Below, piece by piece: positions 8,189 to 34,165 of a stretch of 64,000 nt of DNA; position 1 is the stretch's first letter; every line of letters starts with the position of its first letter. The notes under the pieces were generated by a model. The model had not been told where the DNA came from. It was given only the letters and a program-made list of their open reading frames with translations, and searched no databases. This DNA is from an uncultured Spirochaetota bacterium (GTDB lineage Bacteria; Spirochaetota; Spirochaetia; SZUA-6; Fen-1364). The stretch is from assembly GCA_963820525.1 (NCBI GenBank), contig CAWGAA010000001.1, positions 2,976,001-3,040,000 of the forward strand. Direction: 5' to 3'. The position numbers and the translations under genes are program-made.

Positions 8189-8198
8189 GGACACGCGC

Positions 8199-8996: not shown

Positions 8997-9064
8997 AGGC
9001 GGCGGGCGCCGGCCGTGAAGGCCGCAATGGCCATGAGGCGGCCCGTCCCTTGGAGAGAAACGGC

Positions 9065-10399
9065 ATGGATCCGATACGTGTCATTACAGAGAATTGCACC
9101 GCCTGCAGCCTGTGCGTGAAGGCGTGCTCCTACGCGGCTATCGCCCTTTCCGGCCCGCCTGTGGCGAAGACGGGCAAGCCATCTGCCGTCATCGACCTGG
9201 CGAAGTGCACGGTTTGCGGCGCCTGCGTCGAGGCATGCAAACGATTCAAGGCAATCGTCATCACCCGTGTGACCTTCAAAGGACAGGAAATCAAGGCGTA
9301 CTCGGGCGTGGCCGTGCTGGCCGAGCATCGCAGGGGAAAGCTCGCCTCGGTCGTGCCTGAGATCATCGGCGCGGCGCGCGAGCTGAAGAAGGAGCTTGCC
9401 GAGGCCGAGAAGGCGGGCACGGGCACGGAGGCCCAGGGCGCGGATGGCCAGGCGGCCGCCGGTGCCTCCCCTTCCTCAGGTGACCAGGCGTCCGCCGGGG
9501 CTTCCCCCAACGCGTCCGTCCCTGTTTGCGCCATCCTGGTTGGAAGCGGCGTGAAGCGTTTCACCGACGAGCTTCTTTCCTACGGGGTGGACGAGGTGTG
9601 GATGGTCGACAACCCGACCATCGGAGACTTCGACGAGGACGTTCAGGCGGAGCTCGTTGCCCAGATCATCATGGAAAGAAAGCCGGAGATCTTCCTGGGC
9701 GGAGGAACGGTTGTCGGCCGCTCTCTTCTTCCCCGCGTCGCGGCCAAGATCCTCACCGGGCTTACGGCGGACTGCACGGAGCTTGCGATAGATTCGGCAA
9801 CGAAGCTCCTGAAGCAGACCCGCCCCGCCTTTGGCGGAAACATCATGGCCACGATCCTCACCCAGAACCACCGACCCCAGATGGCCACGGTCCGGCACAA
9901 GGTGATGAAGCCGGCGGACAAGGTAGGGCAGCCCACCGGGAAAGTGATCGAGATCACTCACATCCCTGTTCCCAAATCCAAGATCGAGTTCCTGGAGTTC
10001 GTGGAGGAGAAGGGCGAGACCGTGAACCTGGTGGAAGCAGACGTGATCGTCTCCGGCGGCCGCGGGATCAAGGATCCGAAGAACTTCGCGGTGCTTGAAA
10101 AGCTGGCCCTCGCAACCGGCGGCGCCCTTGGCGCATCGCGCGCCGCGGTGGATGCGGGCTGGATTCCCTACTCTCACCAGGTTGGCCAGACCGGAAAAAC
10201 CGTGAAGCCCAAGGTCTACATCGCCTGCGGAATCTCCGGGGCCATCCAGCACCTTGCCGGCATGAAGGGCTCCGACATGATCATCGCCATCAACTCGGAT
10301 CCTTCGGCTCCCATCTTCGACGTTGCCCACTACGGAATCGTGGGAGACCTGTTCCAGGTTGTGCCGGAGCTCACCAAGAGGCTGGAGAACGGGGGGTAG
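9065..10399 (+). CDS. etfA: Electron transfer flavoprotein alpha subunit with N-terminal 2x[4Fe-4S] ferredoxin domain
   Basis: [11 protein letters not shown] and [11 protein letters not shown] at the N-terminus; [25 protein letters not shown] and [12 protein letters not shown] motifs. Confidence 0.95.
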
Positions 10400-19974: not shown

Positions 19975-20316
19975 TCACTCAGCCGCGGCCCCCTCCTTGT
20001 CCTTCTGGTAGAGGTCGATGACGCTCTTTTTCCAGAGCTTCACCTTGGAGCGGTGCGCGCCGCGGGCGATGGCGTGGGCCGCGGTGGGTGAGGTGATCAG
20101 GATGAACAGGAGGCAGAGAAGCGCCTTGATGCCGAGGGAGGTGAAGCCGGACCAGGCCAGGACCCCGATCAGCATGAAGATGGTGCCGAAGGTGACGCAC
20201 TTGGTTGCGGCCTGGAGACGATTGTAGACGTCCGGCAGCCGCAACAAGCCGAGGCAGCCGAAGAAATTGAAGAAGATGCCGACCCCGAAGCAGATGATGG
20301 AGGCGATGTTACTCAT
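19975..20316 (-). CDS. mnhG: Mrp/Mnh antiporter subunit G (MbhC-like)
   Basis: GLLRLPDVYNRLQAATK and TSPTAAHAIARGA motifs. Confidence 0.93.
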   Translation of the reverse strand: MSNIASIICFGVGIFFNFFGCLGLLRLPDVYNRLQAATKCVTFGTIFMLIGVLAWSGFTSLGIKALLCLLFILITSPTAAHAIARGAHRSKVKLWKKSVIDLYQKDKEGAAAE

Positions 20317-20575
20317 CGAAACCCCTCCCTTCCAGGTACTTCGCCAGTGCGACCGTACCGATGAAGCTCAAGAGGGCCCACGTGATGGCCACGGTGATGA
20401 AGAACTCCTGCCCCGTGACGACCGAGAGCAACGCACAGAAACCTACTATTACGATCCCGATGATGTCGATCGCCACGGTCCGGTCCGGGGCGGTGGGTCC
20501 GCGGGCAATGCGGTAGAGGCACATGAAACAGCAGAGCAGGAGCACGCCGGTGAAGATCTGAAATACGACGCTCAT
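20309..20575 (-). CDS. mnhF: Mrp/Mnh antiporter subunit F (MbhB-like)
   Basis: RIARGPTAPDRTVAID and LSFIGTVALAKYL motifs. Confidence 0.93.
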   Translation of the reverse strand: MSVVFQIFTGVLLLCCFMCLYRIARGPTAPDRTVAIDIIGIVIVGFCALLSVVTGQEFFITVAITWALLSFIGTVALAKYLEGRGFDE

Positions 20576-20585
20576 GCACTCCCCC

Positions 20586-21113
20586 TCAGTCGAACATCTT
20601 CGACAATATGCGCTCGAAATCGGATACGATCTTCCGCGTGGCTTCCTCCACATCCGTCGCCTCCACGTTGATCCAATGGATGTAGAGGTAGCCGTCGTCC
20701 GTCATGTCCACCGTCATGGTCCCCGGCGTGAGGGTTATGGAGTTGGCAAGAACGGTCCTCCCCGATTCGCTGGTGAGTACGGTCTTCACCTTCACGATCC
20801 CTGGCCGTATCGGAAGCGCGGGATGGGCCACACGGTAGAGAACGTCGAGGTTCGCCTTGAGCATGGCCCAGAAGAAAACGGCAAGATAGACCGGCACCCA
20901 CAGCCAGCGTGCGATACTGCGCGGCCGCGCGGGGCGGCGCGGGGAAACCGCCGGGAATGTGAAAATCCTCGAGAAGAGAAGGCTGGCGGCCGCCGCCAGG
21001 ACCACCCCGATGATGAGCGGCTGCCAGTCCATCGTGCGCGTTCGAAAATCGTAGGGCCAGCTCACCAGGTACCAGAGAACCAGGGAGACGAGAAACAGGG
21101 TGATCCTTCGCAT
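20586..21113 (-). CDS. mnhE: Mrp/Mnh antiporter subunit E (MbhA-like)
   Basis: ANLDV, IRPGIV, LANSITLTPGT and LYIHWI motifs. Confidence 0.93.
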   Translation of the reverse strand: MRRITLFLVSLVLWYLVSWPYDFRTRTMDWQPLIIGVVLAAAASLLFSRIFTFPAVSPRRPARPRSIARWLWVPVYLAVFFWAMLKANLDVLYRVAHPALPIRPGIVKVKTVLTSESGRTVLANSITLTPGTMTVDMTDDGYLYIHWINVEATDVEEATRKIVSDFERILSKMFD

Positions 21114-21114
21114 C

Positions 21115-22638
21115 CTAACCTCCAGACCCCGGGAAGACAGCCGCGGCGTATCCAAGGCCCGCCGACAGCGCGTTCACGGCAGGCTCGAGGAACTGCCCTC
21201 GAAGCCCCCCGACGAGGAGCAGTCCCATCCCCGCGCACAGCACCGCCAGAGCCACCATGGCCAGCGACATGGCCAGAGGGGATTCCTTCACCTCCCGGAG
21301 CCGCTCCGGCAGGCTCCCGAGGAATGCGTAGCGCAGGACCTTCAGGAACGAGACCAGGGTGACGAAGCTCACGAGAATCGTGATCGCCCCCAGCCAGTGG
21401 AACCCGGCCTGGAACGCCGCGATGATGATCAAGAGCTTGCTCCAGAACCCGTTGAACGGCGGCACCCCGGCGATGGAAAGAGAAGCGATGGTGCAGGCTA
21501 TCCGGGTGACGGGGAGTTTCTGCCACAACCCCCCCATCTCCTTCAACTGCCGCGTGCCCGTGGCGTATTCGATGGAGCCCGAGCAGAGAAACAGGAGGGA
21601 CTTGAAGACCGCGTGGTTCGCCAGGTGGAACACGCCTCCCAGGATGGCGAGTGAAGCCACGGCGGCGCTTCCGCCCGTGGCCAGAAGGTAGCCGCCCATG
21701 CCGAACCCCAGGATCACGTAGCCCATCTGGCTGATGCTGTGGTACGCGAGAAGACGCTTGAGATCCCATTGGCCGACGGCGAGGAAGACCCCCACGGTCA
21801 TGGAGAGCACCCCAACGGCAATGAGAACCGCGGCGAACCTTCCGTCCATGCCGATGACGTTGAAAAGCACGCGGGCAAGAGCGTAGATCCCCAACGCCTT
21901 GATCAGCACCCCGGAGAGCATGGCCGAGATGGGAGCCGGAGCCGAGGGATGGGCGTCGGGCAGCCAGGGATGGAAGGGGACCAGGGCCGCCTTGATCCCG
22001 AAACCCACGATGAAAAGCACGACGGCCATGGCCACCTGCGGCTTCATGGCGGAGCCCGCGAGCGCCCGGGAGATGCTCGCCATGGTGAGGAAGCCGGTCG
22101 TTCCGTACAGGAGAGCGATCCCCACGAGGATGAACGTGGAACCGATGCTGCCCAGCACGAGGTACCGGAACGACGCCTCCAGCTCCTCGTGCTCGGTGCC
22201 GAAGGCGACCAGCGCGTAGGATGACACGGAGGCGATCTCCAGGAACACGAAGAGGTTGAACAGGTCCCCGGTGATGATCACCCCGTTCATGCCCGCGACC
22301 ATGAGGAGGAAAAGCCCGTAATACCGATGCTTCGACGTGAAGCGCCTCATGTACGGAACCGAGAAGAGCGTGACGGAGAAGCTCACGCAGCCGATCACCA
22401 GGAGCATGAACGTGGAGAGGCCGTCCATCACCCACGCGATGCCCAGGGGAGGAGGCCAGCCGCCGACCGCGTAGACCCCGCGGGCTCCCCGCAAGAGCAC
22501 CGCCAGTGCCAGAAGCGCGAGGGTGCAGGCGTTGCCGAGTATGTCGCAAACCGCAGATGACTTCCTGCCCAGCACGGTGACGAGGAAAGCGCCGGCAAGC
22601 GGGACGGCCACCAGAAGCGGAACGAGGATGCCGCTCAT
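21115..22638 (-). CDS. mnhD: Mrp antiporter subunit D (MbhH-like, NuoN/M homologue)
   Basis: GDLFNLFVFLEIAS, KAALVPFHPWLPDAHPSAP, LKRLLAYHSISQMGY, NHAVFKSLLFL and GVPPFNGFWSK motifs. Confidence 0.92.
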   Translation of the reverse strand: MSGILVPLLVAVPLAGAFLVTVLGRKSSAVCDILGNACTLALLALAVLLRGARGVYAVGGWPPPLGIAWVMDGLSTFMLLVIGCVSFSVTLFSVPYMRRFTSKHRYYGLFLLMVAGMNGVIITGDLFNLFVFLEIASVSSYALVAFGTEHEELEASFRYLVLGSIGSTFILVGIALLYGTTGFLTMASISRALAGSAMKPQVAMAVVLFIVGFGIKAALVPFHPWLPDAHPSAPAPISAMLSGVLIKALGIYALARVLFNVIGMDGRFAAVLIAVGVLSMTVGVFLAVGQWDLKRLLAYHSISQMGYVILGFGMGGYLLATGGSAAVASLAILGGVFHLANHAVFKSLLFLCSGSIEYATGTRQLKEMGGLWQKLPVTRIACTIASLSIAGVPPFNGFWSKLLIIIAAFQAGFHWLGAITILVSFVTLVSFLKVLRYAFLGSLPERLREVKESPLAMSLAMVALAVLCAGMGLLLVGGLRGQFLEPAVNALSAGLGYAAAVFPGSGG

Positions 22639-22982
22639 CCCTTCAACCTCCTGATCTCCGTGATGTCGAAGGTGCCGTATTTCTCGTAGAGGCGGATGCA
22701 CAGCGCGATGCCCAGGCTCGTGATCCCCAGCCCGATCACGATGGAAGTGAGCACGAGCGCCTGGGGAAGCGGATCCACCGCGCGGGAGAGGAAGTCGGTG
22801 AGATTGGTCGCCGGTTCGAGGATGGGCACGGCGCCGTTCTTCCTGTAGCCCAGGAGCACGAGGAAGAGGTTCACCGCGTATTCGATGATGGAAAGACCCA
22901 CCACGATCTTCACCGTGTTCTTCTTGGTCAGAACGCCGTACAGCCCCACAAGGAACAACACGAGGCACAACGCGTAGACCAT
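22635..22982 (-). CDS. mnhC: Mrp antiporter subunit C (MbhG-like)
   Basis: VDPLPQALVLTSIVIG motif. Confidence 0.94.
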   Translation of the reverse strand: MVYALCLVLFLVGLYGVLTKKNTVKIVVGLSIIEYAVNLFLVLLGYRKNGAVPILEPATNLTDFLSRAVDPLPQALVLTSIVIGLGITSLGIALCIRLYEKYGTFDITEIRRLKG

Positions 22983-22985
22983 GGG

Positions 22986-23468
22986 CTACTCCTCCTCTTC
23001 GGTCTGAACCATTTTTGAGGCGCCGTCCGCGTCCACCACGATCCGCAGCACGGAGAGGATCACGAAAATCGAGAACAGCGAGGCGCTCACCTTCAGGCAA
23101 ATGGCGATGTTGTTCACGGGTATCGTTCCCGCGCTCAGGATGTGAAAGCTCCTCCCGGGGAAGCGCTCCTGCAGGAAATTGGCGAAAAAGATCCCGCCCC
23201 ACCCGACGCCCAGGAGCCCCACCGTGAGAAAAATGAGCGCTCCGGCGCTGTCCAACCCGGCGGCGGTGCCCAGTCCGGCGCGCCCGAGGCTCGCCTCCTT
23301 GCCGAAGGCGAGGGTGAGGAGGATGTAGGCGCAGGCGATGATAACGCCGCCCGCGAACCCTCCGCCCGGAGAGAGGTGGCCCGTCAGGGTGATGTATGCC
23401 CCGTAAAGGACGATGAAGACCGTCACCCAGCGGGTGACGGTCTTCACGATCACCGTCATCCCTTTCAT
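22986..23468 (-). CDS. mnhB: Mrp antiporter subunit B (MbhF-like)
   Basis: GHLSPGGGFAGG motif. Confidence 0.92.
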   Translation of the reverse strand: MKGMTVIVKTVTRWVTVFIVLYGAYITLTGHLSPGGGFAGGVIIACAYILLTLAFGKEASLGRAGLGTAAGLDSAGALIFLTVGLLGVGWGGIFFANFLQERFPGRSFHILSAGTIPVNNIAICLKVSASLFSIFVILSVLRIVVDADGASKMVQTEEEE

Positions 23469-24016
23469 TTGTCTTTCCCCCTCTTTGACCTGCCCCGCAG
23501 GATAGTCAGGGCGCCCAGAATGGAGGCGAAAAGGACCGTCGCCTCTCCCATCGTGTCGTAGCCCCGGTAGTCGAGCACGATCGACGTGACGGCGTTCGCG
23601 GAGCCCGTATCGCGCAGCGTCTCCTGGAGGTAGCGGTTGGCGGGCGCTTCCACCACCCGGGAGATGATGGGCGTGCCGAAGGGCGGCAGGCCGCGAAGGG
23701 CGAAAATCCCGAACGCCAGGAAGACCGCCAGGAGCGCGACCGAGAGGGCAAGCCCGGCCCACCCGATGTGTCCGCGGGCCGGAGTGACCTCCCGGGAAAT
23801 GGTTGCGCGGATGAGGAAGATGAGGGCCACGACCTCAACGGCGACCTGGACGATGGCGAGATCCGGCGCCCAGAGGAAAAGGAAGGCGATGCTCACCCCG
23901 ACGCCGACGGCGCCGAGGGAGATCACGGAAGAGATGAGGGCCGGGGTCTCCAGGGCGATAAAGCCCCCGAGGATCATGAAGGAAAGCAGTGCGATCAGAA
24001 TCGTCTCTGTTCCCAT
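23465..24016 (-). CDS. MrpA C-terminal-like subunit (MbhD/DUF4040 plus MbhE fusion)
   Basis: APDLAIVQVAVE and NAVTSIVLDYRGYDTMGEATVL motifs. Confidence 0.88.
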   Translation of the reverse strand: MGTETILIALLSFMILGGFIALETPALISSVISLGAVGVGVSIAFLFLWAPDLAIVQVAVEVVALIFLIRATISREVTPARGHIGWAGLALSVALLAVFLAFGIFALRGLPPFGTPIISRVVEAPANRYLQETLRDTGSANAVTSIVLDYRGYDTMGEATVLFASILGALTILRGRSKRGKDK

Positions 24017-24025
24017 AGGCTTACC

Positions 24026-25858
24026 TCACAGGAAAACGATCACGGCGAAGAGCGCCAGGAGCCCCGCAATGCTCCAGGCCAGGTACCACGGGAGCATGCC
24101 GTTGTGCAGCTTGCGCAGCGCCCAGGTGATCCCGGCGCCGGCCCTGCCTATCTGGACGTAGGGATCGAAGGCGCCCTTCTCCTGGCCGCGGTACATCCTG
24201 CCCAGGAGCGGGAGGCTCCTGAGCGTCTCGTAGAAGCCGACGCCCGAGACGCGAAGCCGTTCGGCGCTCATGCTCTCTCCCCCGATGAACGGCTCCGCGA
24301 TCCGCGCCTTTTTCCTCAGGCGGCCGAGGCCATAGAGGAGCAGCCCCGCGGCCAGGCCGATAAGGAGGAGCGCGGTGGCAAGCGTCGAGTCCCAGACTCC
24401 GCCCGCCTCGGCAGAGAAACCCAGGGCAGGAAAGATCAGGGCCCTCAGGGTGAATCTGTAGAAGATCCCGATGCCGACGCAGGCGAGAGCAAGCACGGCA
24501 GGGGGCGCGAGCATCGCCCAGTTCACCTCGCCCGAGATCTCCCGCGTCCGAAGGGACCTCTGGCCGAGAAAGACGGAATACAGGGCCTTGATGAAGGAAG
24601 CGAGGGTAAGGGCGCTGCCGAACATGGCGGTCACGAGGAACAGCATCGAGGCCCATCCCCCGGCTTGAATGGCGCCCTGGTAGATCATCCACTTGGAGGC
24701 GAAGCCGTTGAGGGGTGGGATGCCGGAGATTGCGAGGGATGCCACGAGAAAGGAGGCGAAGGTGACGGGCATGGCCGCGGCAAGGCCGCCCAGATCCTCC
24801 AGGTTCGTGGTCCCGGCCTTTTTTTCCACCGATCCTCCGCCCAGGAAAAGGCAGCTCTTGTACAGCGTGTGATTCAGCATGTGGAACAGCCCGCCCGCGA
24901 TGCCGATCGGGGTCAGCGTACCGATGCCGAGCACCATGTACCCGACCTGGCTGATGGCATGGTAGGAGAGCAGGCGCATGAGGTCGTGCTGCACCATGGC
25001 CATGAGCACCGCGGCGACGATGGTCACCGCGCCGACGGTCATCAGCACCGTACCGATGGCGGCCGTGGGAATGAAGATGCCCGTGCAGATCCGCACCAGC
25101 AGGTAGATTCCCAGGAGCTTGTCCAACGCGGCCGGGAGGAAGGCCATCACCGCGGCAGGCGCTCCTTCGCTCGCGGCGGGTATCCAGGAGTGGAAAGGCA
25201 TGGAGCCCGCCTTTGTCAAGGCGGCAGTCCCGATCAGGAGAAAGGCGATCGAGAGGAGCCATCCCTGGACCGGCACGTGGATCGCGCTCATGGAGAACGA
25301 GCGCACCGCGTACCACAACAGTCCGATGCCCAGGAGCAGGCAGCCGTCCGTGGCGCCCAACATGACGAAGCTCTTCGTCGCCCCCGCCCTCGCCTCGGCC
25401 GTGCCGGTGGCGACCAGGAAGTACAGGGAGGCGGTGACGATCTCCCAGAAGATGAGGAAGGCCAGGAGATGGTCGGCAAGGAGCACGCCGCTCGAGCCTC
25501 CGATTGCGAAGAGCAGGAACGCGTAGTATTCCCGCAGCCTGGCTTTTCCCGCCATCGCGGGAAGGGAGTACAGGGTGATGAGCAGGCCGAACGCCGCGGA
25601 GAGCAGGAGCGCGAAGGAGCCCAGAGGGGTGAGGGTGAGATCGAGGGAAAGGGAGAAATCCCCGATGGAGATCAGCGGCAGCATGAAATCTGGCCCGCCG
25701 GCGATGAAGAGCCAAAGGGAGAAGGCGAAGGTGGCTGCCGCCGCCAGGAGGGCGAGGGATTCCCTCACCCATTTCATGGCACGGGGGATCGCGAGGGCGA
25801 GAATCCCGGCGGCCAGCGGAACGACGACCGGCAGGAGCGTCACGGCTTGCGTGCTCAT
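24026..25858 (-). CDS. Large antiporter-like subunit (NuoL/HyfB/MrpA-type)
   Basis: FLIFWEI, KAGSMPFHSWIP, RLLSYHAISQVGY, NHTLYKSCLFL, GIPPLNGFASKW and C-terminal LRKLHNG.L.WY. Confidence 0.9.
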   Translation of the reverse strand: MSTQAVTLLPVVVPLAAGILALAIPRAMKWVRESLALLAAAATFAFSLWLFIAGGPDFMLPLISIGDFSLSLDLTLTPLGSFALLLSAAFGLLITLYSLPAMAGKARLREYYAFLLFAIGGSSGVLLADHLLAFLIFWEIVTASLYFLVATGTAEARAGATKSFVMLGATDGCLLLGIGLLWYAVRSFSMSAIHVPVQGWLLSIAFLLIGTAALTKAGSMPFHSWIPAASEGAPAAVMAFLPAALDKLLGIYLLVRICTGIFIPTAAIGTVLMTVGAVTIVAAVLMAMVQHDLMRLLSYHAISQVGYMVLGIGTLTPIGIAGGLFHMLNHTLYKSCLFLGGGSVEKKAGTTNLEDLGGLAAAMPVTFASFLVASLAISGIPPLNGFASKWMIYQGAIQAGGWASMLFLVTAMFGSALTLASFIKALYSVFLGQRSLRTREISGEVNWAMLAPPAVLALACVGIGIFYRFTLRALIFPALGFSAEAGGVWDSTLATALLLIGLAAGLLLYGLGRLRKKARIAEPFIGGESMSAERLRVSGVGFYETLRSLPLLGRMYRGQEKGAFDPYVQIGRAGAGITWALRKLHNGMLPWYLAWSIAGLLALFAVIVFL

Positions 25859-25871
25859 CGAAACACCGCCT

Positions 25872-26813
25872 CTACAGCCAGGTCAGGCCGAGCGCCCGCC
25901 CAATGAAGGCGAGCGCGAACGAAACCAGCGACAAAAGAGTGAGAGGTCTCCAGAAAAATTTCAGGGATTGGTCCACCCTCACCCTCGGATTCGTGTTCTT
26001 GATCACGATGATCAGGACGAGGATTCCCGCGTACTTGAGCACGGACCACAGGGATTGCCATCCGCCGAAGCGCAACCCGCCGAGGAAAAGGGCGCACAGG
26101 AACACGGGGAGGGTAAAGAGCAGCATCGCCTGGGTGAGCTTGAAGACAGCAAGGGGCAGCCCCGAGTACTCGATGAGGAACCCGCCCATGATCTCGGTCT
26201 CCGCCTCCGAGATGTCGAAGGGGATCATGCCGAGCTTCGCCTGTACGCACAGCAGGGAGACGACGAAGGCGAGAGCGCCGGAGACGCTCGCGACAACGGG
26301 GGAGGAGGCGATCCGGGCGATCTGCAGGCTGAATCCGCTGTGGACGATGACGACGACAATGCAGATGAGGAAGGGAAGCTCGTAGGAGAGGATGAGCTTC
26401 ATTTCACGGCTCGCTCCCAGGCCGGCGAGGGGATTTCCCGAGGCGAGGGCGCCGAGCATCAGCGCGAGGGAGGGGAGCATGAGGAAATACACCACAACGA
26501 CCAGGTCTCCCATGAAGGAGCTCCCGCGCAGGAATGCGAGCCAGAGAACGGGGGATACGGCGGAGACGGCGATCAGGCCGATGAAAGGAGCGAAGAGGAA
26601 GAGGCCGTGGTTGCCGCCCTTGGGAAGGATCACCTCCTTGCCCATCAGCTTTACAATGTCGTAGACCGGCTGCGCCAGAGGCGGGCCCACCCGCCACTGC
26701 AGCCGCGCGGTCACCTTCCTGTCCACCCAGCTGGCCAGAAGCCCCAGGATCGCGGTGAAGAGGAAGCCGGGGAACACAAGGAAGGCAAAGACGTCTCTTG
26801 CCACGTGAGTCAC
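25872..26813 (-). CDS. NuoH-like membrane subunit (MbhM/HycD)
   Basis: DRKVTARLQWRVGPP..QP.YD..KL, GASRE and PFDISEAETEIMGGFLIEYSG motifs. Confidence 0.94.
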   Translation of the reverse strand: MTHVARDVFAFLVFPGFLFTAILGLLASWVDRKVTARLQWRVGPPLAQPVYDIVKLMGKEVILPKGGNHGLFLFAPFIGLIAVSAVSPVLWLAFLRGSSFMGDLVVVVYFLMLPSLALMLGALASGNPLAGLGASREMKLILSYELPFLICIVVVIVHSGFSLQIARIASSPVVASVSGALAFVVSLLCVQAKLGMIPFDISEAETEIMGGFLIEYSGLPLAVFKLTQAMLLFTLPVFLCALFLGGLRFGGWQSLWSVLKYAGILVLIIVIKNTNPRVRVDQSLKFFWRPLTLLSLVSFALAFIGRALGLTWL

Positions 26814-27346
26814 CCTCCCTTCGCGGGGGCGTGCTTTCCCGCGGTGCGGCGCCCTCTTTCGGACGCGTTGGTGAGGAGAGCCGCCGAGATGAGATCCGCC
26901 AGGAGTCCCGCCGCGCGCCGCAGATCATCCGAGAGAGGCGAGCCGATGCGGAGGCAGGCGGGCTGGATGCCGAGGACGTGAACCGCCGCGCCCGTCTGGG
27001 AGGAAATGATGCCGGACAGCTCGGCCAGGGGCATCGCGTGAGTGGTGAGGCACGCTCCGTCCAGACAGGCCGGATCAAGGATCTCGAACTCGCCCGGCGG
27101 CCTGCCCAGATGGGCGGCGTCGATCAGCAGGACCGTGTCGGGCAGCTCCCGGACCATGCGTCCGAGGTGGTTCTCCGGCGCATCCGCGGCCTCCAGAACC
27201 CCGGCCCCGGGGGCGCCGCGCAGCAGGCGCGCCACCGAAAGCCCAACGGCGTCGTCTCCGCGAAGCTCGTTGCCGATCCCGACGAGCATCACCTTCCCCC
27301 GCAGAATCGGGATGAAGGGATTGCCTGCCGCGCTTCCTTCTCTCAT
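26810..27346 (-). CDS. Hydrogenase maturation endopeptidase (HycI-like)
   Basis: VGIGNELRGDDAVG, APEN, LIDAA, TTHAMPL and LGIQP motifs. Confidence 0.93.
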   Translation of the reverse strand: MREGSAAGNPFIPILRGKVMLVGIGNELRGDDAVGLSVARLLRGAPGAGVLEAADAPENHLGRMVRELPDTVLLIDAAHLGRPPGEFEILDPACLDGACLTTHAMPLAELSGIISSQTGAAVHVLGIQPACLRIGSPLSDDLRRAAGLLADLISAALLTNASERGRRTAGKHAPAKGG

Positions 27347-27350
27347 CTGC

Positions 27351-27962
27351 CTATCCCGTGGTGAGCGTGGTCCGCCTGCGGCAGCGGGCGCAGAGAATCT
27401 TTGCCCGGTCGGACCGCCCGCGATCCGCGATGGCGGCGGCGACGTTGTCGTCAATGACCCCCATGCTCCGCAGGCGCGAGTGGAAGAGGGTGGGGCTGGA
27501 GAACTCCAGCTCCCCCACCCGCTCGGCGATCCATGAGAGGTGATCCCTGCACGCGATGACGTCACCGCAGACTTCGCAGAGGGCCAGCTCCTTCTCTATG
27601 GTCTCGAAGGATTGCGTCTTTCGGTCGAAAAAGGACAGCTCCCAGTCGTTGGAAAGCGCTATTCCGAGGTGATCCGCGATGCATGCGGCTTCACAGCAGC
27701 CGCAGAAGATGCAGGTATCGGTGTAATGGATCATGACCCGCCTGGCGACGCCGCCGTTCACCTCGTCCCGGTGGCCGATGGCATCCACCGGGCATACCTG
27801 CTCGCAGGCCAGGCAGCCGACGCATCGCTCGGCGTCGAATTTCGGCTGTCCCCGGAAGTTGCCGTGGGGAACGTGAGGGGTGCGGGGGAACGTCGAGGTG
27901 TAGGGCCGGCTCATGAGGGCCTTGATCGCCTCAGCGAGCTCCCGCATCTTGGGAAGCTTCAT
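27351..27962 (-). CDS. NuoI-like [4Fe-4S] subunit (MbhN/HycF)
   Basis: FRGQP, CVGCLACEQVCP and CIFCGCCEAAC, plus C-terminal CEVC...CARC. Confidence 0.92.
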   Translation of the reverse strand: MKLPKMRELAEAIKALMSRPYTSTFPRTPHVPHGNFRGQPKFDAERCVGCLACEQVCPVDAIGHRDEVNGGVARRVMIHYTDTCIFCGCCEAACIADHLGIALSNDWELSFFDRKTQSFETIEKELALCEVCGDVIACRDHLSWIAERVGELEFSSPTLFHSRLRSMGVIDDNVAAAIADRGRSDRAKILCARCRRRTTLTTG

Positions 27963-29140
27963 ACGCCCATCTCCTTGCGCAGCGCCTCCGTCTTGCATTG
28001 CGAGAGGCGGATGATGTCCTGGCCGTTGTACAGCAGCCTGCCGTCCGTCGAACGGACCGCCATGCGTTCCGTGCAGCAATAGCAGGGATCCACCGCGGCA
28101 AGAATGATCGTGGCGTCCGCGATCGATTGGCCGACCACGGTGGAATAGCAGGTGGGAATGTTCATAAAAGAGGGCGCCCTGACCTTGTGCCGTACGGGCC
28201 GGTTGGTGCCGTCGCTGCGCACGTAATGGAAGACCTCGCCTCGTGGGGCTTCGTGGGTTCCAATCCCTTCGCCGGGCGGCACACCGGTAAGGTTGAGGTC
28301 GATCTCCCCTTTGGGCAGTCCGGCAAGGCACTCCTTCACGATTTTCACGGATTCGAAGATCTCGAGGACCCGCACCAGAAGCTTGTCGAAAACGTCGCCG
28401 TGGGTCGCGCTCACCATCTTCCACTCCACCCGGTCGTAGGCAGCGTAGGGTGAGTCTTTTCGTATGTCCCGGCAAACGCCGGACGCCCTGGCGGTCGGAC
28501 CCACGGCGCACCAGGCAATGGCGTCGTCATGGCTGAGCACGCCGATTCCTTTCAACCGGGCGTGGAGCACGGGGTCGTCCAGCACCGCCTTTTTCAGAAG
28601 GTCAAGGGTGGGCAGGATGGAGTCGATCTTCTTCACTACGACGGGGATGTCGTCGTCCTTGATGTCACGCCGGACCCCGCCGGGCTTGAACATGGCGTAA
28701 TTGTTCCGGTTGCCGGAAAGGATCTCCATGACGTCGAGGATTTCCTCCCTCAGCTTCCAGACCCACATGTAGACCGTGTTGTATCCCAGAAAGTGGCCGG
28801 CCAGGCCGAGCCACAGAAGGTGGGAGTGGATGCGCTCCCCCTCCGCGATGATCGTGCGGATGTATTTGGCCCGTTCGGGCTCCTGTACGCCGAGGATGTC
28901 TTCAACGGCACGCGTGTAGGCGAAGGGATGGCTCGTGGAGCAGATGCCGCAGATCCGCTCGACCACGAAGGTGGCCTGGTCGAAGGTCTTGCTTTCCGAA
29001 AGCTTCTCGATTCCCCGGTGGTTGTACCCGAGGGCAAGGTCGACGCCCACGACCTTTTCGCCCTCCACCGTGAGGCTGAAGAACTCGGGCTCCTCCTGCA
29101 GGGGGTGGAAAGGCCCTAGGGGAATGATCGAGCGCTGCAT
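27959..29140 (-). CDS. Group 4 [NiFe]-hydrogenase large subunit
   Basis: GPFHP..EEP, GYNHRGIEK, L1 motif ERICGIC, EAPRGE, and L2 motif DPCYCCTER followed by a 34-aa cleavable extension. Confidence 0.95.
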   Translation of the reverse strand: MQRSIIPLGPFHPLQEEPEFFSLTVEGEKVVGVDLALGYNHRGIEKLSESKTFDQATFVVERICGICSTSHPFAYTRAVEDILGVQEPERAKYIRTIIAEGERIHSHLLWLGLAGHFLGYNTVYMWVWKLREEILDVMEILSGNRNNYAMFKPGGVRRDIKDDDIPVVVKKIDSILPTLDLLKKAVLDDPVLHARLKGIGVLSHDDAIAWCAVGPTARASGVCRDIRKDSPYAAYDRVEWKMVSATHGDVFDKLLVRVLEIFESVKIVKECLAGLPKGEIDLNLTGVPPGEGIGTHEAPRGEVFHYVRSDGTNRPVRHKVRAPSFMNIPTCYSTVVGQSIADATIILAAVDPCYCCTERMAVRSTDGRLLYNGQDIIRLSQCKTEALRKEMGV

Positions 29141-29613
29141 CACACCCCCCTGTCTCTCACGGCCTGCGGGTCCCACTCCACGTATTCGCTCCTGAGAGGA
29201 TGGACCCCTTCGGGCCACTCCTCGGGCAGCAGCAGCCTCTCCGGTCTGGGATGCCCGCGGAAGGTGACGCCGAGAAGCTCGCGCATCTCCCGCTCGATCC
29301 AGTTGGCTCCCTTGATGAGCGGGGTGAGGGAATCCACCTCGGGCCGCTCGCGGTCCAGCTTCACCCTGAGGCTCACCAGGAGGTTCTGGCCCTCCAGGGA
29401 GAAGTGGTAGAGGATCTCCATGCGGCCCCGGGCATCCACTCCCGACGCCGTGTTGAACCTGGCGCCGAGATCCCTGAACAGGTAGGTCGCCACCGCGAGC
29501 AGGGCCTGCGGCCTGATCTCGACGTACACCCTGGCTGCGGACTTTTCGGCGACTTCCACGATGTCGGCCGCGAATTGCCGCCTGATGGCGGCGAGCGCTT
29601 CATCCCGGCTCAT
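29140..29613 (-). CDS. NuoC-like subunit (MbhK)
   Basis: EILYHF and ANWIEREMRELLGVTFRGHP.PERLLLPEEWPEGVHPLR motifs. Confidence 0.93.
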   Translation of the reverse strand: MSRDEALAAIRRQFAADIVEVAEKSAARVYVEIRPQALLAVATYLFRDLGARFNTASGVDARGRMEILYHFSLEGQNLLVSLRVKLDRERPEVDSLTPLIKGANWIEREMRELLGVTFRGHPRPERLLLPEEWPEGVHPLRSEYVEWDPQAVRDRGV

Positions 29614-30041
29614 GATTTTCCTCCCAGCTTTGCGATGAGCTTCACCACGCCCGCGATGATCGCCTCCGGCTTCGGGGGGCATCCGGGGATATAGACGTGC
29701 ACGGGGATGACCCGGTCCAACGGCAGCGGGCAGTTGTAGCTCTTCATGAACATGCCGCGGGAGAGCGCGCACTCCCCGATGGCCACCACGACGCAGGGCT
29801 TTGGGACGTGCTCCTCCCAGATCTTTTTCACCCGGTGCATCGTTTTCCTGTTGCAGGAGCCGGTCACCAGGAGGACGTCCGCGTGGCGGGCGCTTCCGGC
29901 CAGCCGCATGCCGAACCGCTCGACGTCGAAGCGCGGGGTGAGGCAGTCGAGGACTTCGATATCGCAGTTGTTGCAGCTCCCCGTGGAAAGATGGAACACC
30001 CAGGGGGATTTCAAGAGGGCCTTCAAGGTGATGCCGCCCAT
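29610..30041 (-). CDS. Hydrogenase small subunit, NuoB-like (MbhJ/HycG)
   Basis: SCNNCDIE, DVERFG, RHADVLLVTG, AIGEC and YIPGCPPKPE motifs. Confidence 0.95.
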   Translation of the reverse strand: MGGITLKALLKSPWVFHLSTGSCNNCDIEVLDCLTPRFDVERFGMRLAGSARHADVLLVTGSCNRKTMHRVKKIWEEHVPKPCVVVAIGECALSRGMFMKSYNCPLPLDRVIPVHVYIPGCPPKPEAIIAGVVKLIAKLGGKS

Positions 30042-30598
30042 TACGCCTTCTCCCTCATCCAGTGGGTGGAATGGATCACAAGATTGTCTCCCACCAGAAA
30101 CGTTCGATCCGGCAGCGCGGCGTCCGCCTGCCGGAGGGCGAGCGCCCCATGGGGGCAGCTGGCGATGCACAGGGGTTCGCCCGCCGTGCCCCTTCGGTCA
30201 AGGCAGAAATCGCAGTTGTGGACTATAAGGGGAACGATCTCCGGGTAGATGGTGCCGTACGGGCAGGCGTGGGAGCAGGAGCGGCAGCTCACGCAGCGCA
30301 TCGTGTGCCGTAAAAGCAGCCTCTCCCTGGCCTGTTGCTGTTCCAGCGCCTGAACGGGACAGCTTTTCACGCAGTGCGGGTCCTCGCAGCGGCGGCAGAC
30401 CAGGGCATACGTGGCCAGCTCGACCACGGAGAGGATGCCGTTGTTCGACGGGTGGTAGAAGTAGCTGCAGAGCGCCGTGCATCCCGCGCAGTCCCCCGAT
30501 GCGCACACGTCAAGGTCGACGAACAACCGCGCGTGAGCGGCGGGACGCGGCGTGGTGCCCGGAATGCCGAGGTAGACCTCCTCCGCGCTCGTGCTCAT
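30041..30598 (-). CDS. Multi-[4Fe-4S] electron transfer protein (HycB/DmsB-like)
   Basis: Four Cys groups: CASGDCAGCTALC, CRRCEDPHCVKSCP, CVSCRSCSHACP and CDFC...CIASCP. Confidence 0.88.
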   Translation of the reverse strand: MSTSAEEVYLGIPGTTPRPAAHARLFVDLDVCASGDCAGCTALCSYFYHPSNNGILSVVELATYALVCRRCEDPHCVKSCPVQALEQQQARERLLLRHTMRCVSCRSCSHACPYGTIYPEIVPLIVHNCDFCLDRRGTAGEPLCIASCPHGALALRQADAALPDRTFLVGDNLVIHSTHWMREKA

Positions 30599-30609
30599 GT
30601 GCTCCCTCC

Positions 30610-31434
30610 TCAGTCCCAGATATCGTGAAAGCGGCTGATCGAATCGTAGCGGAACACCGGACCGTCCTTGCACGCATAGAAGGTGCCGATCCTGCAATGT
30701 CCGCACTTGCCCAGGCCGCAGGACATGTTTTTTTCCATGGAGAGAAAGATGCGGTTTTCCGAGAACCCGAGATCCCTGAGCTTGCCCGTCGCGTATTTCA
30801 TCATCACGGGGGGACCGCAGACCACGGCGATCCCCTCCGCGCGGTCGATGTCGGCGCCGTCCAGGATCGTCGTCACCACCCCTACCTTGCCCCGCCAATC
30901 CCCGTTCGCCTGGTCCACGGTCAGCACGACGTCCAGGTCCCCTCGTTCGGCCCACCCCTCGATCTCCTTGCGATAGAGAAAATCACCCGGGGTCTTGCAT
31001 CCACCCCGAAAGGCGAGCTTTTTCAGCCGTCCCGATTGATTGAAGAACTCGTACATCAGGCTGCGAAGCGGCGCGAACCCGCAGCCTCCGCCGACCACGA
31101 GCACTTCCTTGCCCGCAAACACCTCCAGCGGATATCCGGTGCCGAAAGGCCCCCGCAACCCCACCGTTGCCCTGGGTTGAAGCTCGTGGATGGCGGAGGT
31201 CACCCTGCCCGCCTTCATTACCGTGAAAGAAAGCACCTGGGGTTCGGATGGATTGGACGAGGGGGTGAACGGCGCTTCCCCGAGGCCTGGCACCGTCAAC
31301 TCCATGAATTGACCCGTCTTGAAGTCCAAGGGCTCCTTCGGTTCCACACGAAGCGTCTTGATTGTGGGGGTCTCGGCAATGACCTCGACCACCTTCGCCT
31401 CCACGGGCTGGTAGGGATTTTCGCTCTTATCCAT
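30610..31434 (-). CDS. FAD/NAD(P)-binding subunit with [2Fe-2S] (sulfhydrogenase gamma/AsrB-like)
   Basis: NPY.P, GQF, GEAPF, RGPFG.GYP, GGGCGFAPLRS, CGPPVMM and SMEKNMSCGLGKCGHC...CKDGPVF motifs. Confidence 0.93.
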   Translation of the reverse strand: MDKSENPYQPVEAKVVEVIAETPTIKTLRVEPKEPLDFKTGQFMELTVPGLGEAPFTPSSNPSEPQVLSFTVMKAGRVTSAIHELQPRATVGLRGPFGTGYPLEVFAGKEVLVVGGGCGFAPLRSLMYEFFNQSGRLKKLAFRGGCKTPGDFLYRKEIEGWAERGDLDVVLTVDQANGDWRGKVGVVTTILDGADIDRAEGIAVVCGPPVMMKYATGKLRDLGFSENRIFLSMEKNMSCGLGKCGHCRIGTFYACKDGPVFRYDSISRFHDIWD

Positions 31435-32467
31435 TTCTCGCCATGCCCCCCAGAATCCTTCGGATGTCGATGCGGCCGGGACATGCGGAGATGCAGCGGC
31501 CGCATCCTGTGCAGGCATACAGGCTGCGGGTCTTGGGGAAGAAATCGAATTTCTTCTCGAAACGGTTGCGCAGCCGCATCCACAGCTGGGGCCGGGGATT
31601 GGCCCCGCCGGCAACCTTCGCGAAATCCTTGATGAGGCAGGAATCCCACATCCTAAACCGCGCAGCCTCGTCGTCTTTTTTCTGGTCGTAGAGCAGGAAA
31701 CAGTGGCAGGTGGGGCAGATGGTATTGCAGGCACCGCATTCCACGCACGTGGACGCCTCCTGCCCCCAGAGTCCGGACTCCCAGCTCTGCTCGAAGGCGC
31801 CTTCCAACAGCTCCTGTGCGGGAATACGGTGCTCCTGGATGTTGCCGCGGACTTTCTCTTCCGCCTGCCGGCGCAGCCGTTCACGTTCATCCATTTCTTG
31901 CTGCGTCGCCTCGCGCGGACGGGGAGCGGCGCTCTCCATCAGGGTCTCGCCGCGGGTGGAGCCCGCTTCCACGACGAACCCGCCCGCGATCTCGGAGAGG
32001 TTGATGTCGAATCCCTGCCTGGGGAACGGCCCGGTGTGGAGAGCCATACAGAAGCAGGTGTCGATGGGCCGTGGGCAATCTGAAGATATGACGAGATTCT
32101 CTTCTCGATGCCTGCGGTACAGCGGGTCAGGCCGTTCATCATCCAGAAACACTCTGTCCAGCACGTCGAAGCCCTTCAGGTCGCAGGCCTTGACCCCGAC
32201 GATGCAGATCGGCTTCTCGGAGACCTCCGGGACGGCATTGCTGAACCCCGAAGCGACCCGCTCGCGCGCCCTGAAGTAGAACGCCTTCAGCGGCTCGCAA
32301 GGGCGCACCTCGCCAATCGAAGCGCACGCCCTCTCCCGCGGGATGGACTCCAGCCGTTGAAGGTACTGGCGCTTGTCCTTTGTAACGGGAGCGAGGACCG
32401 TGTACCCTCCCGAAAGGGAAGAGAGCAGGACGGTAAGGTCTCCCGGCGAGAGAAACGCCGCTTTCAT
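31427..32467 (-). CDS. Fe-S subunit (sulfhydrogenase beta/AsrA-like)
   Basis: GVKACD, DP.Y...R, TCFC, CVECGACNTICPTCHCF, R.WDSC and CTGCGRCISACP..ID motifs. Confidence 0.93.
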   Translation of the reverse strand: MKAAFLSPGDLTVLLSSLSGGYTVLAPVTKDKRQYLQRLESIPRERACASIGEVRPCEPLKAFYFRARERVASGFSNAVPEVSEKPICIVGVKACDLKGFDVLDRVFLDDERPDPLYRRHREENLVISSDCPRPIDTCFCMALHTGPFPRQGFDINLSEIAGGFVVEAGSTRGETLMESAAPRPREATQQEMDERERLRRQAEEKVRGNIQEHRIPAQELLEGAFEQSWESGLWGQEASTCVECGACNTICPTCHCFLLYDQKKDDEAARFRMWDSCLIKDFAKVAGGANPRPQLWMRLRNRFEKKFDFFPKTRSLYACTGCGRCISACPGRIDIRRILGGMARNG

Positions 32468-32764
32468 GGGATGTCCCTGCCGGTCTGGTTGTAATGAAGA
32501 GGAGGATCGATTCGCGACGCGCTTTTTTCCGTGCGCCGCTTCCGGGTGCCCCAGAAGGGAAAACGCCTTGCCTTTTTTAATGCACCAACTTCAGTCCGCA
32601 CAAGCTCGGAAGCGCATTTTTCCCCTCTGGCCGCGCCTGCATTCGGTGAGTTCACCTTTTCCTCCGCTATTTGAATTAAGGAGGACCGCAGCTGCCGTAG
32701 CCAGAACGCCTGCACAGGATCCTGAACGGTTTTTCAGATTATTGGAAATCGGCTCTCCTGTCAA
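32468..32764 (-). promoter_or_regulatory. Promoter and ~260-nt structured 5' leader of the hydrogenase operon
   Basis: TTGACA (32764-32759), 17-nt spacer, TAATCT (32741-32736); several complementary segments in the leader (see findings). Confidence 0.55.
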
Positions 32765-32773
32765 GCGTGGAAA

Positions 32774-34165
32774 CTAGCGAGATTGGGATTCCGCCTTGTG
32801 GAGGGAGATCCGAAAGAGCGTGCCCTTCCCCTCTTCGCTGTCAAATTCGATTGTTCCGCCGTAGCGCTCGACATTGGCTTTCACGATTGCGAGGCCGAGA
32901 CCGGTTCCGATCTCCGACGTTGCTTTCGCGTTGGAAGCCCGGAAAAACTCGCTGAAGATCCTGTCGCGCTCCTCCCGCGGGACGCCGATGCCCGTATCCT
33001 TCACCTCGAGCAGGATTCGATCCCCCTGTTCGCCGATACGGACGGTTACGAATCCTCCCCTGGGGGTATACGCGATCGCGTTGGAGAGGAGGTTGGTGAT
33101 CACCGAGCGAAGCCCATCCTCGGCGCCGCTCACCGAGGCGTCGGGGACCGCGCAGTCGAATGCGAGCACGACCCCGCGCTCCCGGGCGCGCGATTCGTAA
33201 AGCTCCACGATTTCCCGCGCCAGCCGATCCAGGGAGACGGCCACGGGTTTGAAGCTCGACTGCTCCATCCTGCCCCGCGTGAGCACGTGCAGGTCGCTCA
33301 CGACCTCTGAAAGCGTTTGAGCCCGCAAGTGTATTCTGCCGATCAGCTCTCGCTGCCGCTGCGTGATTTCACCAAGATACCCGTCGAGCAGCGTGGAGGC
33401 GATCGAGCTGATGGCATTCGCCGGGGAGCGCAGCTCATGGGAGGCGTGGAGCAGGAACATCGTCTTCGCATCCGACAGGCGCTTGACTTCTTTATAAACC
33501 ATCGCGTGCGCGATGGCGAGTGAAATCACGTCCCCGAGACTGGAGAGAAGGGAGATCATTTCATCCGACAGTCTCCTGCCCGGCTCGCCGTAGATGCAGA
33601 TCGAGCCGAAGATCCGCTCCTCCAGTCGGAGCGGAACGCAGATGAGGGATTCGATCTCGTCATCCACCTCGGGAAACTCCCGGGCCAGGGTGTCGCGAAT
33701 CACCAGCGGCTTGCCCGATAGCAGGCGCGACTGGTAGGTGGCGCGCTCGATCGCCACGTCGCGCTGCACGCCGACCCGCGCCCGGGCCGTCATCTTGCCC
33801 GTATCCTCCTCGAGGAGGTTGATCGAGCAGCCTTCGACTCCCGTGACCTCCGCGACTACCCGCACGGAAGCGTCGAGAATCTCCTGCAGCTCCAGCGTGC
33901 TTGCCGCTTTCTTTATCGTCGCGCAGAACAATTGGAGCTGGCGCGCCCGGTTGGAAATGGATTTGTAGCGCGGCGCGCTTCGCAGAATCAGGTCCGTCAC
34001 CAGGGCGGAGAGGCAGCCGACGGCGACGGCGATCGCGAGCCGGAGCTCCAGCGACTCGCTCAGCCGCAACGGCAAAAAACCCAGGAAGCAGAGAAGAGAC
34101 GTGACTGCCCCTGCGGCGGCAACCAGGTGGGCACCGAAACCATGCGGAGCGTTCTCTCTTTTCAC
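32774..34165 (-). CDS. Membrane sensor histidine kinase with GAF domain
   Basis: Two N-terminal TMs, GAF (SLICVPLR), H-box ASHELRSP, NLLSNAIAY, DTGIG and GTGLGL motifs. Confidence 0.93.
   Translation of the reverse strand: MKRENAPHGFGAHLVAAAGAVTSLLCFLGFLPLRLSESLELRLAIAVAVGCLSALVTDLILRSAPRYKSISNRARQLQLFCATIKKAASTLELQEILDASVRVVAEVTGVEGCSINLLEEDTGKMTARARVGVQRDVAIERATYQSRLLSGKPLVIRDTLAREFPEVDDEIESLICVPLRLEERIFGSICIYGEPGRRLSDEMISLLSSLGDVISLAIAHAMVYKEVKRLSDAKTMFLLHASHELRSPANAISSIASTLLDGYLGEITQRQRELIGRIHLRAQTLSEVVSDLHVLTRGRMEQSSFKPVAVSLDRLAREIVELYESRARERGVVLAFDCAVPDASVSGAEDGLRSVITNLLSNAIAYTPRGGFVTVRIGEQGDRILLEVKDTGIGVPREERDRIFSEFFRASNAKATSEIGTGLGLAIVKANVERYGGTIEFDSEEGKGTLFRISLHKAESQSR

What the first reader, a model, noticed from the sequence alone, without database searches (positions are those of the whole stretch)
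19975..32467. 17-gene operon joining a sulfhydrogenase-type NAD(P)H module to an Mrp-linked group 4 [NiFe]-hydrogenase
Seen: one tightly packed minus-strand operon with many overlapping stop/start codons. Order: AsrA/HydB-like, AsrB/HydG-like, 4-cluster Fe-S protein, NuoB-, NuoC-, NuoD-like (Ni ligands RICGIC and DPCYCC intact), NuoI-like, protease, NuoH-like, NuoL-like, MbhDE, mnhB, C, D, E, F, G. Known: beta/gamma pairs of this type are the NAD(P)H diaphorase of soluble group 3b hydrogenases and of AsrABC, while Mrp-Mbh complexes use ferredoxin, formate or CO. No group 3b alpha/delta subunits or AsrC are in the window. Inference: an ion-translocating H2:NAD(P)+ oxidoreductase, a complex-I analogue with a non-NuoEFG input module. 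It could pump ions during H2 oxidation or use the gradient to drive H2 evolution from NAD(P)H, which would suit syntrophy. I cannot confirm this architecture is unreported.
Basis: partly seen in the sequence, partly recalled or inferred. Interest (0 to 1): 0.82.

Follow-up and report, generated by a model that had tools for sequence, protein, structure and literature searches.

The report
Spirochaete variant of Hun hydrogenase operon
This is an intact 17-gene spirochaete copy of the already named but untested 'Hun' membrane hydrogenase, which likely links NADH to hydrogen gas and ion pumping; this copy appears to be a hybrid whose membrane arm keeps a pump residue that most Hun copies lack.

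Summary
The operon is real: 17 intact genes, 9 of 16 junctions overlapping, no gap over 13 nt. The architecture is not new. It is the 'Hun' complex of Glass et al. (group 4g, AsrA/B-like pair without AsrC, CGIC/CYCC, Mrp arm). The AsrA-AsrB-FeS genes sit upstream in 70 of 80 related loci; the other 10 are cut by contig ends. This scan has reported Hun, with Rex control, in at least eight other genomes. Relatives often carry rex (25 of 80) and Rex-like boxes (21 of 63); this copy has neither. The genome's group 3b-type hydrogenase has its own beta/gamma, and no AsrC was found. Particular to this lineage: the genes are regrouped into soluble and membrane blocks with conflicting trees (p-AU 0.001-0.003), and the MrpA/NuoL-like subunit keeps GluTM5, which is Gly in 70 of 73 relatives. 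Electron partner, direction and pumping remain unmeasured.

The parts
31427..32467 (-). HunA: AsrA / sulfhydrogenase-beta-like Fe-S protein, 346 aa
   Evidence: NCBIfam ShyB 1e-50, HydB 5e-46, AsrA 4e-34, all under cut-off; PDB 9nez_B 3e-44; 15 invariant Cys in 58 sequences
30610..31434 (-). HunB: AsrB / sulfhydrogenase-gamma-like FAD, NAD(P), [2Fe-2S] protein, 274 aa; Asp174 at the coenzyme-selecting position
   Evidence: Pfam FAD_binding_6, NAD_binding_1, DHODB_Fe-S_bind; PDB 9nez_C 5e-51; D174 in 68 of 68 relatives
30041..30598 (-). HunC: four-cluster Fe-S protein of DmsB/HycB/CooF type, 185 aa
   Evidence: Pfam Fer4_11; PDB hits FdnH, ArrB, HycB3/4
29610..30041 (-). NuoB-like hydrogenase small subunit, 143 aa
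   Evidence: Oxidored_q6; four Cys in 78 of 78 relatives
29140..29613 (-). NuoC-like subunit, 157 aa
   Evidence: Complex1_30kDa
27959..29140 (-). HunG: group 4 [NiFe] large subunit, 393 aa; L1 RICGIC, L2 DPCYCC, C-terminal extension
   Evidence: Best PDB hits MbhL 6cfw_L 2e-88 and HycE 7z0s_E 3e-78; CxxC pairs in sequence
27351..27962 (-). HunP: NuoI/HycF-like Fe-S protein, 203 aa; two 4Fe-4S motifs plus four extra invariant Cys (129, 132, 191, 194)
   Evidence: Top NCBIfam hit formate hydrogenlyase Fe-S subunit; 12 invariant Cys in 45 sequences
26810..27346 (-). Hydrogenase maturation protease, 178 aa
   Evidence: TIGR00072 over cut-off
25872..26813 (-). NuoH-like membrane anchor, 313 aa; first gene of the membrane block
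   Evidence: Pfam NADHdh
24026..25858 (-). MrpA/NuoL-like antiporter subunit (MBS H'-like), 610 aa; keeps GluTM5 (E139) with K216, K247, H326, K389
   Evidence: Aligns over residues 11-543 with MBS chain 6u8y_X; E139 is Gly in 70 of 73 relatives
23465..24016 (-). MbhD-MbhE fusion (MrpA C-terminal part), 183 aa
   Evidence: Pfam MbhD and MbhE; R, D and E of the RGYDTMGE motif invariant in 66 of 66
22986..23468 (-). MnhB, 160 aa
   Evidence: Pfam MnhB
22635..22982 (-). MnhC, 115 aa
   Evidence: Oxidored_q2; NCBIfam antiporter subunit C
21115..22638 (-). MnhD antiporter subunit, 507 aa; key Glu, Lys, His intact
   Evidence: the Glu, three Lys and two His examined are invariant in 54 of 54
20586..21113 (-). 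MnhE, 175 aa
   Evidence: Pfam MNHE
20309..20575 (-). MnhF, 88 aa
   Evidence: Pfam MrpF_PhaF
19975..20316 (-). MnhG, 113 aa
   Evidence: TIGR01300 over cut-off
32468..32773 (-). 306-nt leader; no Rex box and no sigma-70 consensus
   Evidence: Best matrix score -6.2 against a training minimum of 15.5

Best explanation
The operon encodes a Hun-type group 4 [NiFe] hydrogenase with an Mrp arm, which likely disposes of NADH as H2 and would couple that flow to H+/Na+ export when hydrogen is kept very low. Shown: gene content, intact cofactor ligands, conserved linkage. Inferred electron path: NADH to FAD and [2Fe-2S] in HunB, the HunA clusters, four clusters of HunC, HunP, the NuoB-like cluster, then the Ni-Fe site of HunG. 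Inferred coupling: NuoH-like subunit to two antiporter-like subunits and the MbhDE/MnhB/C/F/G sodium path. NADH to H2 yields about -5, -10 and -16 kJ/mol at 10, 1 and 0.1 Pa H2 (NADH at -320 mV; about 8 kJ less at -280 mV), so pumping on NADH alone needs an H2-scavenging partner and less than about one ion per turnover. Ferredoxin may feed the same wire as a second donor. This lineage is likely a recombinant: a main-clade soluble arm on a spirochaete membrane arm with both antiporter-like channels intact.
For: Same gene set and CGIC/CYCC signature as Hun. HunB: FAD, NAD and Fe-S domains, glycine-rich and Cys motifs essentially invariant in 68 relatives, D174 in 68 of 68. In the PDB alignments that position is Asp in PyrK and the Nfn small subunit, and Ser-Val-Thr-Arg replaces Thr-Val-Asp-Gln in sulfhydrogenase I gamma. 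An Asp-to-Thr change is listed as switching cytochrome b5 reductase from NAD to NADP (table row, PMC5817062); that D174 equals D239 is my register from recall. rex gene in 25 of 80 loci, 20 of them directly before hunA. Rex-like boxes in 21 of 63 leaders against 0.12 expected; 18 of 24 loci with rex, 3 of 39 without. Rex is described as repressing NADH-oxidation genes at low NADH/NAD+ (PMC5317091). hypF, D, E, B flank 23, 19, 12, 5 of 80 loci. Mosaic: window plus L028, L038, L046, L108 form one clade in NuoH (99) and MnhD (100) trees but are rejected as a clade for HunG (p-AU 0.0012) and HunB (0.0029); NuoL-like tree 100/99.
Against: No biochemistry was found for any Hun. This copy has no Rex box and no adjacent rex. 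Rex also controls the Ech [NiFe] operon of Caldicellulosiruptor (Ech is ferredoxin-coupled), so it shows redox control, not the substrate. The box resembles CRP/FNR-type sites (recalled). The energy from NADH to H2 is small and turns positive above about 10-100 Pa. An intact second channel would, if it raises the ion count, make NADH-driven pumping harder in this lineage. The genome already has two Rnf, a Nuo, a 3b-type and a Hox-type hydrogenase for NAD(H) balance. AU tests without L108 did not reject a single main clade for NuoH (p 0.73) or NuoL-like (p 0.19), so the mosaic rests on one genome, and that group was named after seeing the NuoL-like tree.
Confidence: 0.5

Rival explanations
1. 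Published Hun model: HunABC take electrons from reduced ferredoxin and the complex evolves H2 while exporting H+/Na+, like MBH; the NAD site is secondary.
For: Proposed in Glass et al. and for group 4g in HydDB. Ferredoxin (-450 mV) to H2 gives -24 to -36 kJ/mol at 100 to 1 Pa, enough for pumping, and would suit two intact channels.
Against: It leaves the invariant FAD/NAD/[2Fe-2S] machinery of HunB unexplained. The MvhAGD-HdrA partner that paper invokes was not found here: no MvhD/FlpD match in a 96.7% complete genome.
Confidence: 0.22
2. One reading: reversed coupling, so H2 oxidation with NAD+ pumps ions out, and the gradient can drive NADH to H2 uphill.
For: H2 to NAD+ gives -18 to -26 kJ/mol at 1 bar. 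Gradient-driven H2 evolution would fit Rex induction and remove the need for very low H2. The Gly/Glu change in one antiporter-like subunit shows the membrane arm differs from solved complexes.
Against: Characterised group 4 enzymes couple H2 evolution to ion translocation. At 1000 Pa H2 oxidation to NAD+ gives only -7 to -14 kJ/mol, and less below that. Nothing in the sequence shows a reversed polarity.
Confidence: 0.17
3. The CYCC site reduces a higher-potential acceptor such as polysulfide, making this an NADH:acceptor pump like MBS or complex I rather than a hydrogenase.
For: The membrane arm has the two-antiporter layout and an MBS H'-like subunit. The extra Cys in L2 is unusual. A higher-potential acceptor would solve the energy problem.
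Against: All four Ni-Fe Cys, a C-terminal extension (30-47 aa after the motif in 80 of 80), an in-operon protease and flanking hyp genes. HunG is nearer MbhL (2e-88) than the MBS subunit 6u8y_L (7e-47). One complete Hun operon has plain CYSC (L093/L108).
Confidence: 0.07
4. HunAB is co-transcribed but works apart, as a soluble diaphorase for another enzyme.
For: No physical contact between HunA and the hydrogenase arm has been shown.
Against: Linked in every locus long enough to show it (70 of 70). The 3b-type hydrogenase has its own pair (28% and 39% identical). No AsrC.
Confidence: 0.04

Closest known systems
Hun supercomplex, hunA-P (Glass et al., bioRxiv 10.1101/536078; passages read)
   Same: AsrA/B-like pair without AsrC, Fe-S protein, group 4g core with CGIC/CYCC, Mnh antiporter set.
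   Different: Here hunP and a protease follow hunG and the NuoH-like gene opens a separate membrane block; most relatives have NuoH before NuoB and hunP last. GluTM5 is kept. No molybdopterin protein between hunB and hunC. The paper proposes ferredoxin as donor; its main text has no 'Rex', and 'NADH' only once, in a legend on complex I.
Saganbacteria RX5A group 4 hydrogenase (PMC6349859, passages) and the 'Mbh-Mrp-oxidoreductase type' of Elusimicrobia (bioRxiv 10.1101/765248, passages)
   Same: Group 4 core, Mrp subunits, asrA, asrB and a cooF-like gene in one region (Saganbacteria); donor called unknown.
   Different: The Saganbacteria region adds a molybdopterin oxidoreductase, absent here.
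Pyrococcus furiosus MBH (PDB 6cfw; HydDB group 4d) and MBS (PDB 6u8y)
   Same: Large subunit closest to MbhL; Mrp-type arm; NuoL-like subunit collinear with MBS chain X.
   Different: MBH has one antiporter-like subunit and uses ferredoxin; MBS lacks Ni (recalled). Neither has a flavoprotein module.
Sulfhydrogenase I / group 3b beta-gamma (PDB 9nez) and AsrAB
   Same: HunA and HunB are full-length homologues.
   Different: No alpha/delta or AsrC; scores are far below the equivalog cut-offs; Asp rather than Thr at the coenzyme-selecting position.
E. coli formate hydrogenlyase (PDB 7z0s)
   Same: HycE-like large subunit with processing tail, HycF-like HunP with extra Cys, HycB-type four-cluster HunC.
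   Different: A diaphorase pair stands where FdhF would be; a full Mrp set is present.

Membership tests
Hun complex | AsrA- and AsrB-like genes heading the operon, AsrC absent | tested here: met
Hun complex | Large subunit with L1 CGIC and L2 CYCC | tested here: met
   also 80 of 80 relatives, but one of six search patterns held CYCC, so that count is partly selected
Hun complex | NuoH-like anchor plus MnhA-G-like antiporter set | tested here: met
Hun complex | Large subunit groups with HunG of the named phyla | tested here: met
   Inside a 73-row clade (SH-aLRT 100, quick tree) with Atribacterota L011 (76% identical), Omnitrophota and Elusimicrobiota. The paper's own reference sequence was not in hand.
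Hun complex | Canonical gene order (NuoH before NuoB, hunP last) | tested here: not met
   Order is rearranged, as in spirochaete loci L028, L038, L046. Canonical order is taken from the majority of relatives; the paper's figure was not visible.
HydDB group 4g | HydDB classifier assigns the large subunit to 4g | not testable with these tools
   Assignment taken from Glass et al. for HunG
Group 4 [NiFe] hydrogenase | Four Ni-Fe Cys, complex I-like core, maturation tail and protease | tested here: met
Group 4 [NiFe] hydrogenase | Nickel content, H2 activity, ion translocation | not testable with these tools
   needs biochemistry
Group 4d Mrp-MBH | Single antiporter-like subunit and no flavoprotein module (recalled) | tested here: not met
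   two antiporter-like subunits and an FAD/NAD protein
Group 3b sulfhydrogenase | beta-gamma-delta-alpha operon with a group 3 large subunit | tested here: not met
   ShyA/HydA models match only the N-terminal part, 44 and 36 bits; the true 3b-type operon is at G000:C2:620787-625265
AsrABC sulfite reductase | AsrC sirohaem subunit | tested here: not met
   best TIGR02912 score 26 bits against a cut-off of 324

The most novel reading that the evidence does not exclude
Hun is an NADH-linked, ion-coupled hydrogenase: a complex I analogue with an FNR-type input instead of NuoEFG. Its ion count is tuned by a Glu/Gly switch in one antiporter-like subunit. Most lineages have silenced one channel to run on the small NADH-to-H2 energy gap, while this spirochaete recombinant keeps both, and so may use the gradient to push NADH to H2 or take a lower-potential donor.
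Probability: 0.2. Interest if true: 0.75.

Novelty: new variant of a known kind. Interest (0 to 1): 0.4.

Why it matters
No characterised group 4 hydrogenase in the HydDB table uses NAD(H). If Hun does, it adds a route for NADH recycling with energy conservation in many uncultured anaerobes: about 1100 stored genome stretches match the search patterns by the tool's estimate. The natural Glu/Gly pair of variants offers a direct test of how many ions each antiporter-like subunit moves. A cultured carrier exists among the loci (Desulfosarcina variabilis, L044, Gly type). The operon itself is published and this scan has met it repeatedly, which caps the score.

Tried and rejected
Complex prediction of HunA with HunC (58-row alignments): no verdict, score 0.01 against a mark of 0.32; not evidence either way. 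Promoter and terminator scan: nothing above chance. Rex box in this copy's leader: none. A molybdopterin gene between hunB and hunC: not in any of 70 loci, largest gap 240 nt. First test of a membrane-arm swap without L108: not rejected for NuoH or NuoL-like, unfinished for MnhD. The careful HunG tree did not finish; the quick tree is used. [FeFe] hydrogenase and MvhD were not found in the genome. Literature searches that found nothing; two searches returned only Glass et al., only the Saganbacteria paper, one complex I paper. PMC8542988 and PMC9324843 (passages) treat Mrp-linked 4g enzymes as ferredoxin-coupled and did not mention the Asr-like pair in the passages seen. Rejected: orphan group 3b subunits, AsrABC, a chance gene cluster.
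Full report
Observation. The 17 genes lie on the minus strand from 32467 to 19975 in the order given, all open, with 9 of 16 junctions overlapping and no gap above 13 nt. Family scans confirm each assignment. The large subunit has RICGIC and DPCYCC, a C-terminal extension, and a maturation protease two genes downstream. Its best solved relatives are MbhL and HycE. The host is inferred to be a spirochaete: the closest protein with an organism name is from Spirochaetes bacterium RBG_13_68_11 at 81%, and a same-order genome's HunG is identical to that of a Spirochaetales locus. Six DNA runs from five wetland or freshwater-sediment studies hold at least half of the sampled words; one may be the source.

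It is the Hun complex. Glass et al. (bioRxiv 10.1101/536078; passages read, figures and supplements not seen) describe a 16-subunit complex with AsrA/B-like HunAB, no AsrC, a group 4g large subunit marked by CGIC-CYCC and an Mnh antiporter set, and propose ferredoxin as donor. Matheus Carnevali et al. (PMC6349859, passages) noted the same combination with a molybdopterin protein in Saganbacteria. AsrA, AsrB and the Fe-S gene lie upstream on the same strand in 70 of 80; the other 10 are cut by the contig end less than 3 kb upstream. CYCC is in 80 of 80, though one search pattern contained it. Among sampled kin, a HunG-type match (61% or more) is in 0 of 24 same-family and 6 of 16 other same-order genomes, so the operon is patchy. 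After forming this reading I looked at the scan's notes: eight earlier reports already file other copies under Hun, most with Rex control.

The beta/gamma pair belongs to this operon. The genome has a separate beta-gamma-delta-alpha operon with its own pair (28% and 39% identical), a Hox-type hydrogenase, a second group 4 complex and a Nuo operon (types read from gene order and sequence, not from HydDB). It has two RnfC over cut-off. No AsrC, [FeFe] hydrogenase or MvhD was found in this 96.7% complete genome.

Electron partner. HunB carries FAD, NAD(P) and [2Fe-2S] domains with essentially invariant motifs in the 68 near-full-length copies among the 80 loci. Asp174 is present in all 68. In the PDB alignments PyrK and the Nfn small subunit have Asp there, while NADPH-dependent sulfhydrogenase I gamma reads Ser-Val-Thr-Arg (the program offsets that loop by a gap, and the register is mine). 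A review table lists D239T as switching cytochrome b5 reductase from NAD to NADP (PMC5817062); equating D174 with D239 is recalled. A rex gene (over NCBIfam cut-off) is in 25 of 80 loci, 20 times directly before hunA. Boxes within two mismatches of the Rex consensus (consensus seen in PMC5317091) occur in 21 of the 63 loci with a readable leader, against 0.12 in base shuffles; 18 of 24 with a rex gene and 3 of 39 without; 23 of all 27 sites fall in 25 kb of leaders out of 1.32 Mb. Kin are not independent. Against: this copy has no box (best score -6.2, training minimum 15.5) although the genome has rex elsewhere, and Rex also controls an Ech operon (PMC6391272, passages). I read this as NADH being the likely partner and reductant disposal the likely role, neither shown.

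Energetics. NADH to H2 is +18 to +26 kJ/mol at 1 bar, +1 to +9 at 100 Pa, -10 to -3 at 1 Pa and -16 to -8 at 0.1 Pa, for NADH at -320 or -280 mV; ferredoxin at -450 mV gives -24 at 100 Pa (potentials are textbook values). HydDB lists group 4 as respiratory H2-evolving enzymes that translocate ions (PMC5037454, passages). With that polarity NADH can drive pumping only at about 1 Pa or less. This is the main unresolved point and the reason confidence is 0.5.

What is particular to this copy. All soluble genes come first and all membrane genes second, an order shared with spirochaete loci L028, L038, L046. GluTM5 is one of the key residues of antiporter-like subunits (PMC7434922, passages). In the MrpA/NuoL-like subunit it is Gly in 70 of the 73 loci that cover it and Glu only in those three and the window; MrpA, MbhH and the MBS chain have Glu, as does the MnhD-like subunit in 54 of 54. 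All six further same-order genomes examined have Glu; some are the same or near-same organisms as L028-L067. Spirochaete loci L019 and L053 have Gly, so host alone does not explain it. One genome (L108) has the canonical order and a distant soluble arm (HunG 61%, CYSC; HunA 39%; HunC 33%) but a close membrane arm (MnhD 74%, MnhF 81%, MnhG 72%). Window, L028, L038, L046 and L108 form one clade for NuoH (99) and MnhD (100) and are rejected as a clade for HunG (p-AU 0.0012) and HunB (0.0029) in 17-row quick trees; a careful 25-row NuoL-like tree separates 9 Glu rows (100/99) from 15 Gly rows (100/97). The block-wise order makes this lineage the more likely recombinant. Caveats: tests without L108 did not reject a single clade, the result leans on one genome, rows were subsets of the 80 chosen by me for spread, and the group was named after one tree was seen. 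A word search of the scan's notes found nothing on this, and paper searches found nothing relevant, but the library lacks most subscription journals.

Verdict. Real and coherent; architecture already described; electron partner probably NADH; direction and pumping unknown; a modest new variant. Interest 0.4.

Noticed in passing
window 32774-34165 (-): GAF-HisKA-HATPase sensor kinase directly upstream on the same strand; a 52% identical kinase lies just downstream of the operon in L038, so it may replace Rex as regulator in this lineage. Four other loci match only the kinase domain at 33-35%.
   Followed up: partly
G000:C1:2146010-2155848 (outside the window): Second group 4 hydrogenase operon with three antiporter-like subunits; its large-subunit gene is split between two frames near C1:2153070, an assembly error or a pseudogene.
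   Followed up: partly
window 7025-10399 (+): Acyl-CoA dehydrogenase with EtfB and an EtfA that has an N-terminal 4Fe-4S domain; a possible electron-bifurcating Bcd-Etf.
   Followed up: no
window 50098-52368 (+): Quinol-type nitric oxide reductase (NorB with cytochrome c-like domain).
   Followed up: no
window 56689-59092 (+): Glutamate-cysteine ligase followed by an ATP-grasp protein, apparently glutathione synthesis as two genes.
   Followed up: no
L023:16790-18097 and 6 other loci: After the Hun operon, a HypC-like N-terminus fused to a HydE-type radical SAM domain, often next to rex; the HypC likeness is by eye.
   Followed up: no
L019 and L041, about 60-90 nt before hunA: A shared palindrome of a different type (GTTAA-N3-TTAAC core) in the leaders of two split-operon loci.
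   Followed up: no
G000:C1:428338-429579 and C3:1053997-1055331; C1 near 184464, 227266, 1338175, 1478172: Two RnfC genes and four loci with ATPase c/K subunits: an unusually redundant set of ion-coupled machines.
   Followed up: no
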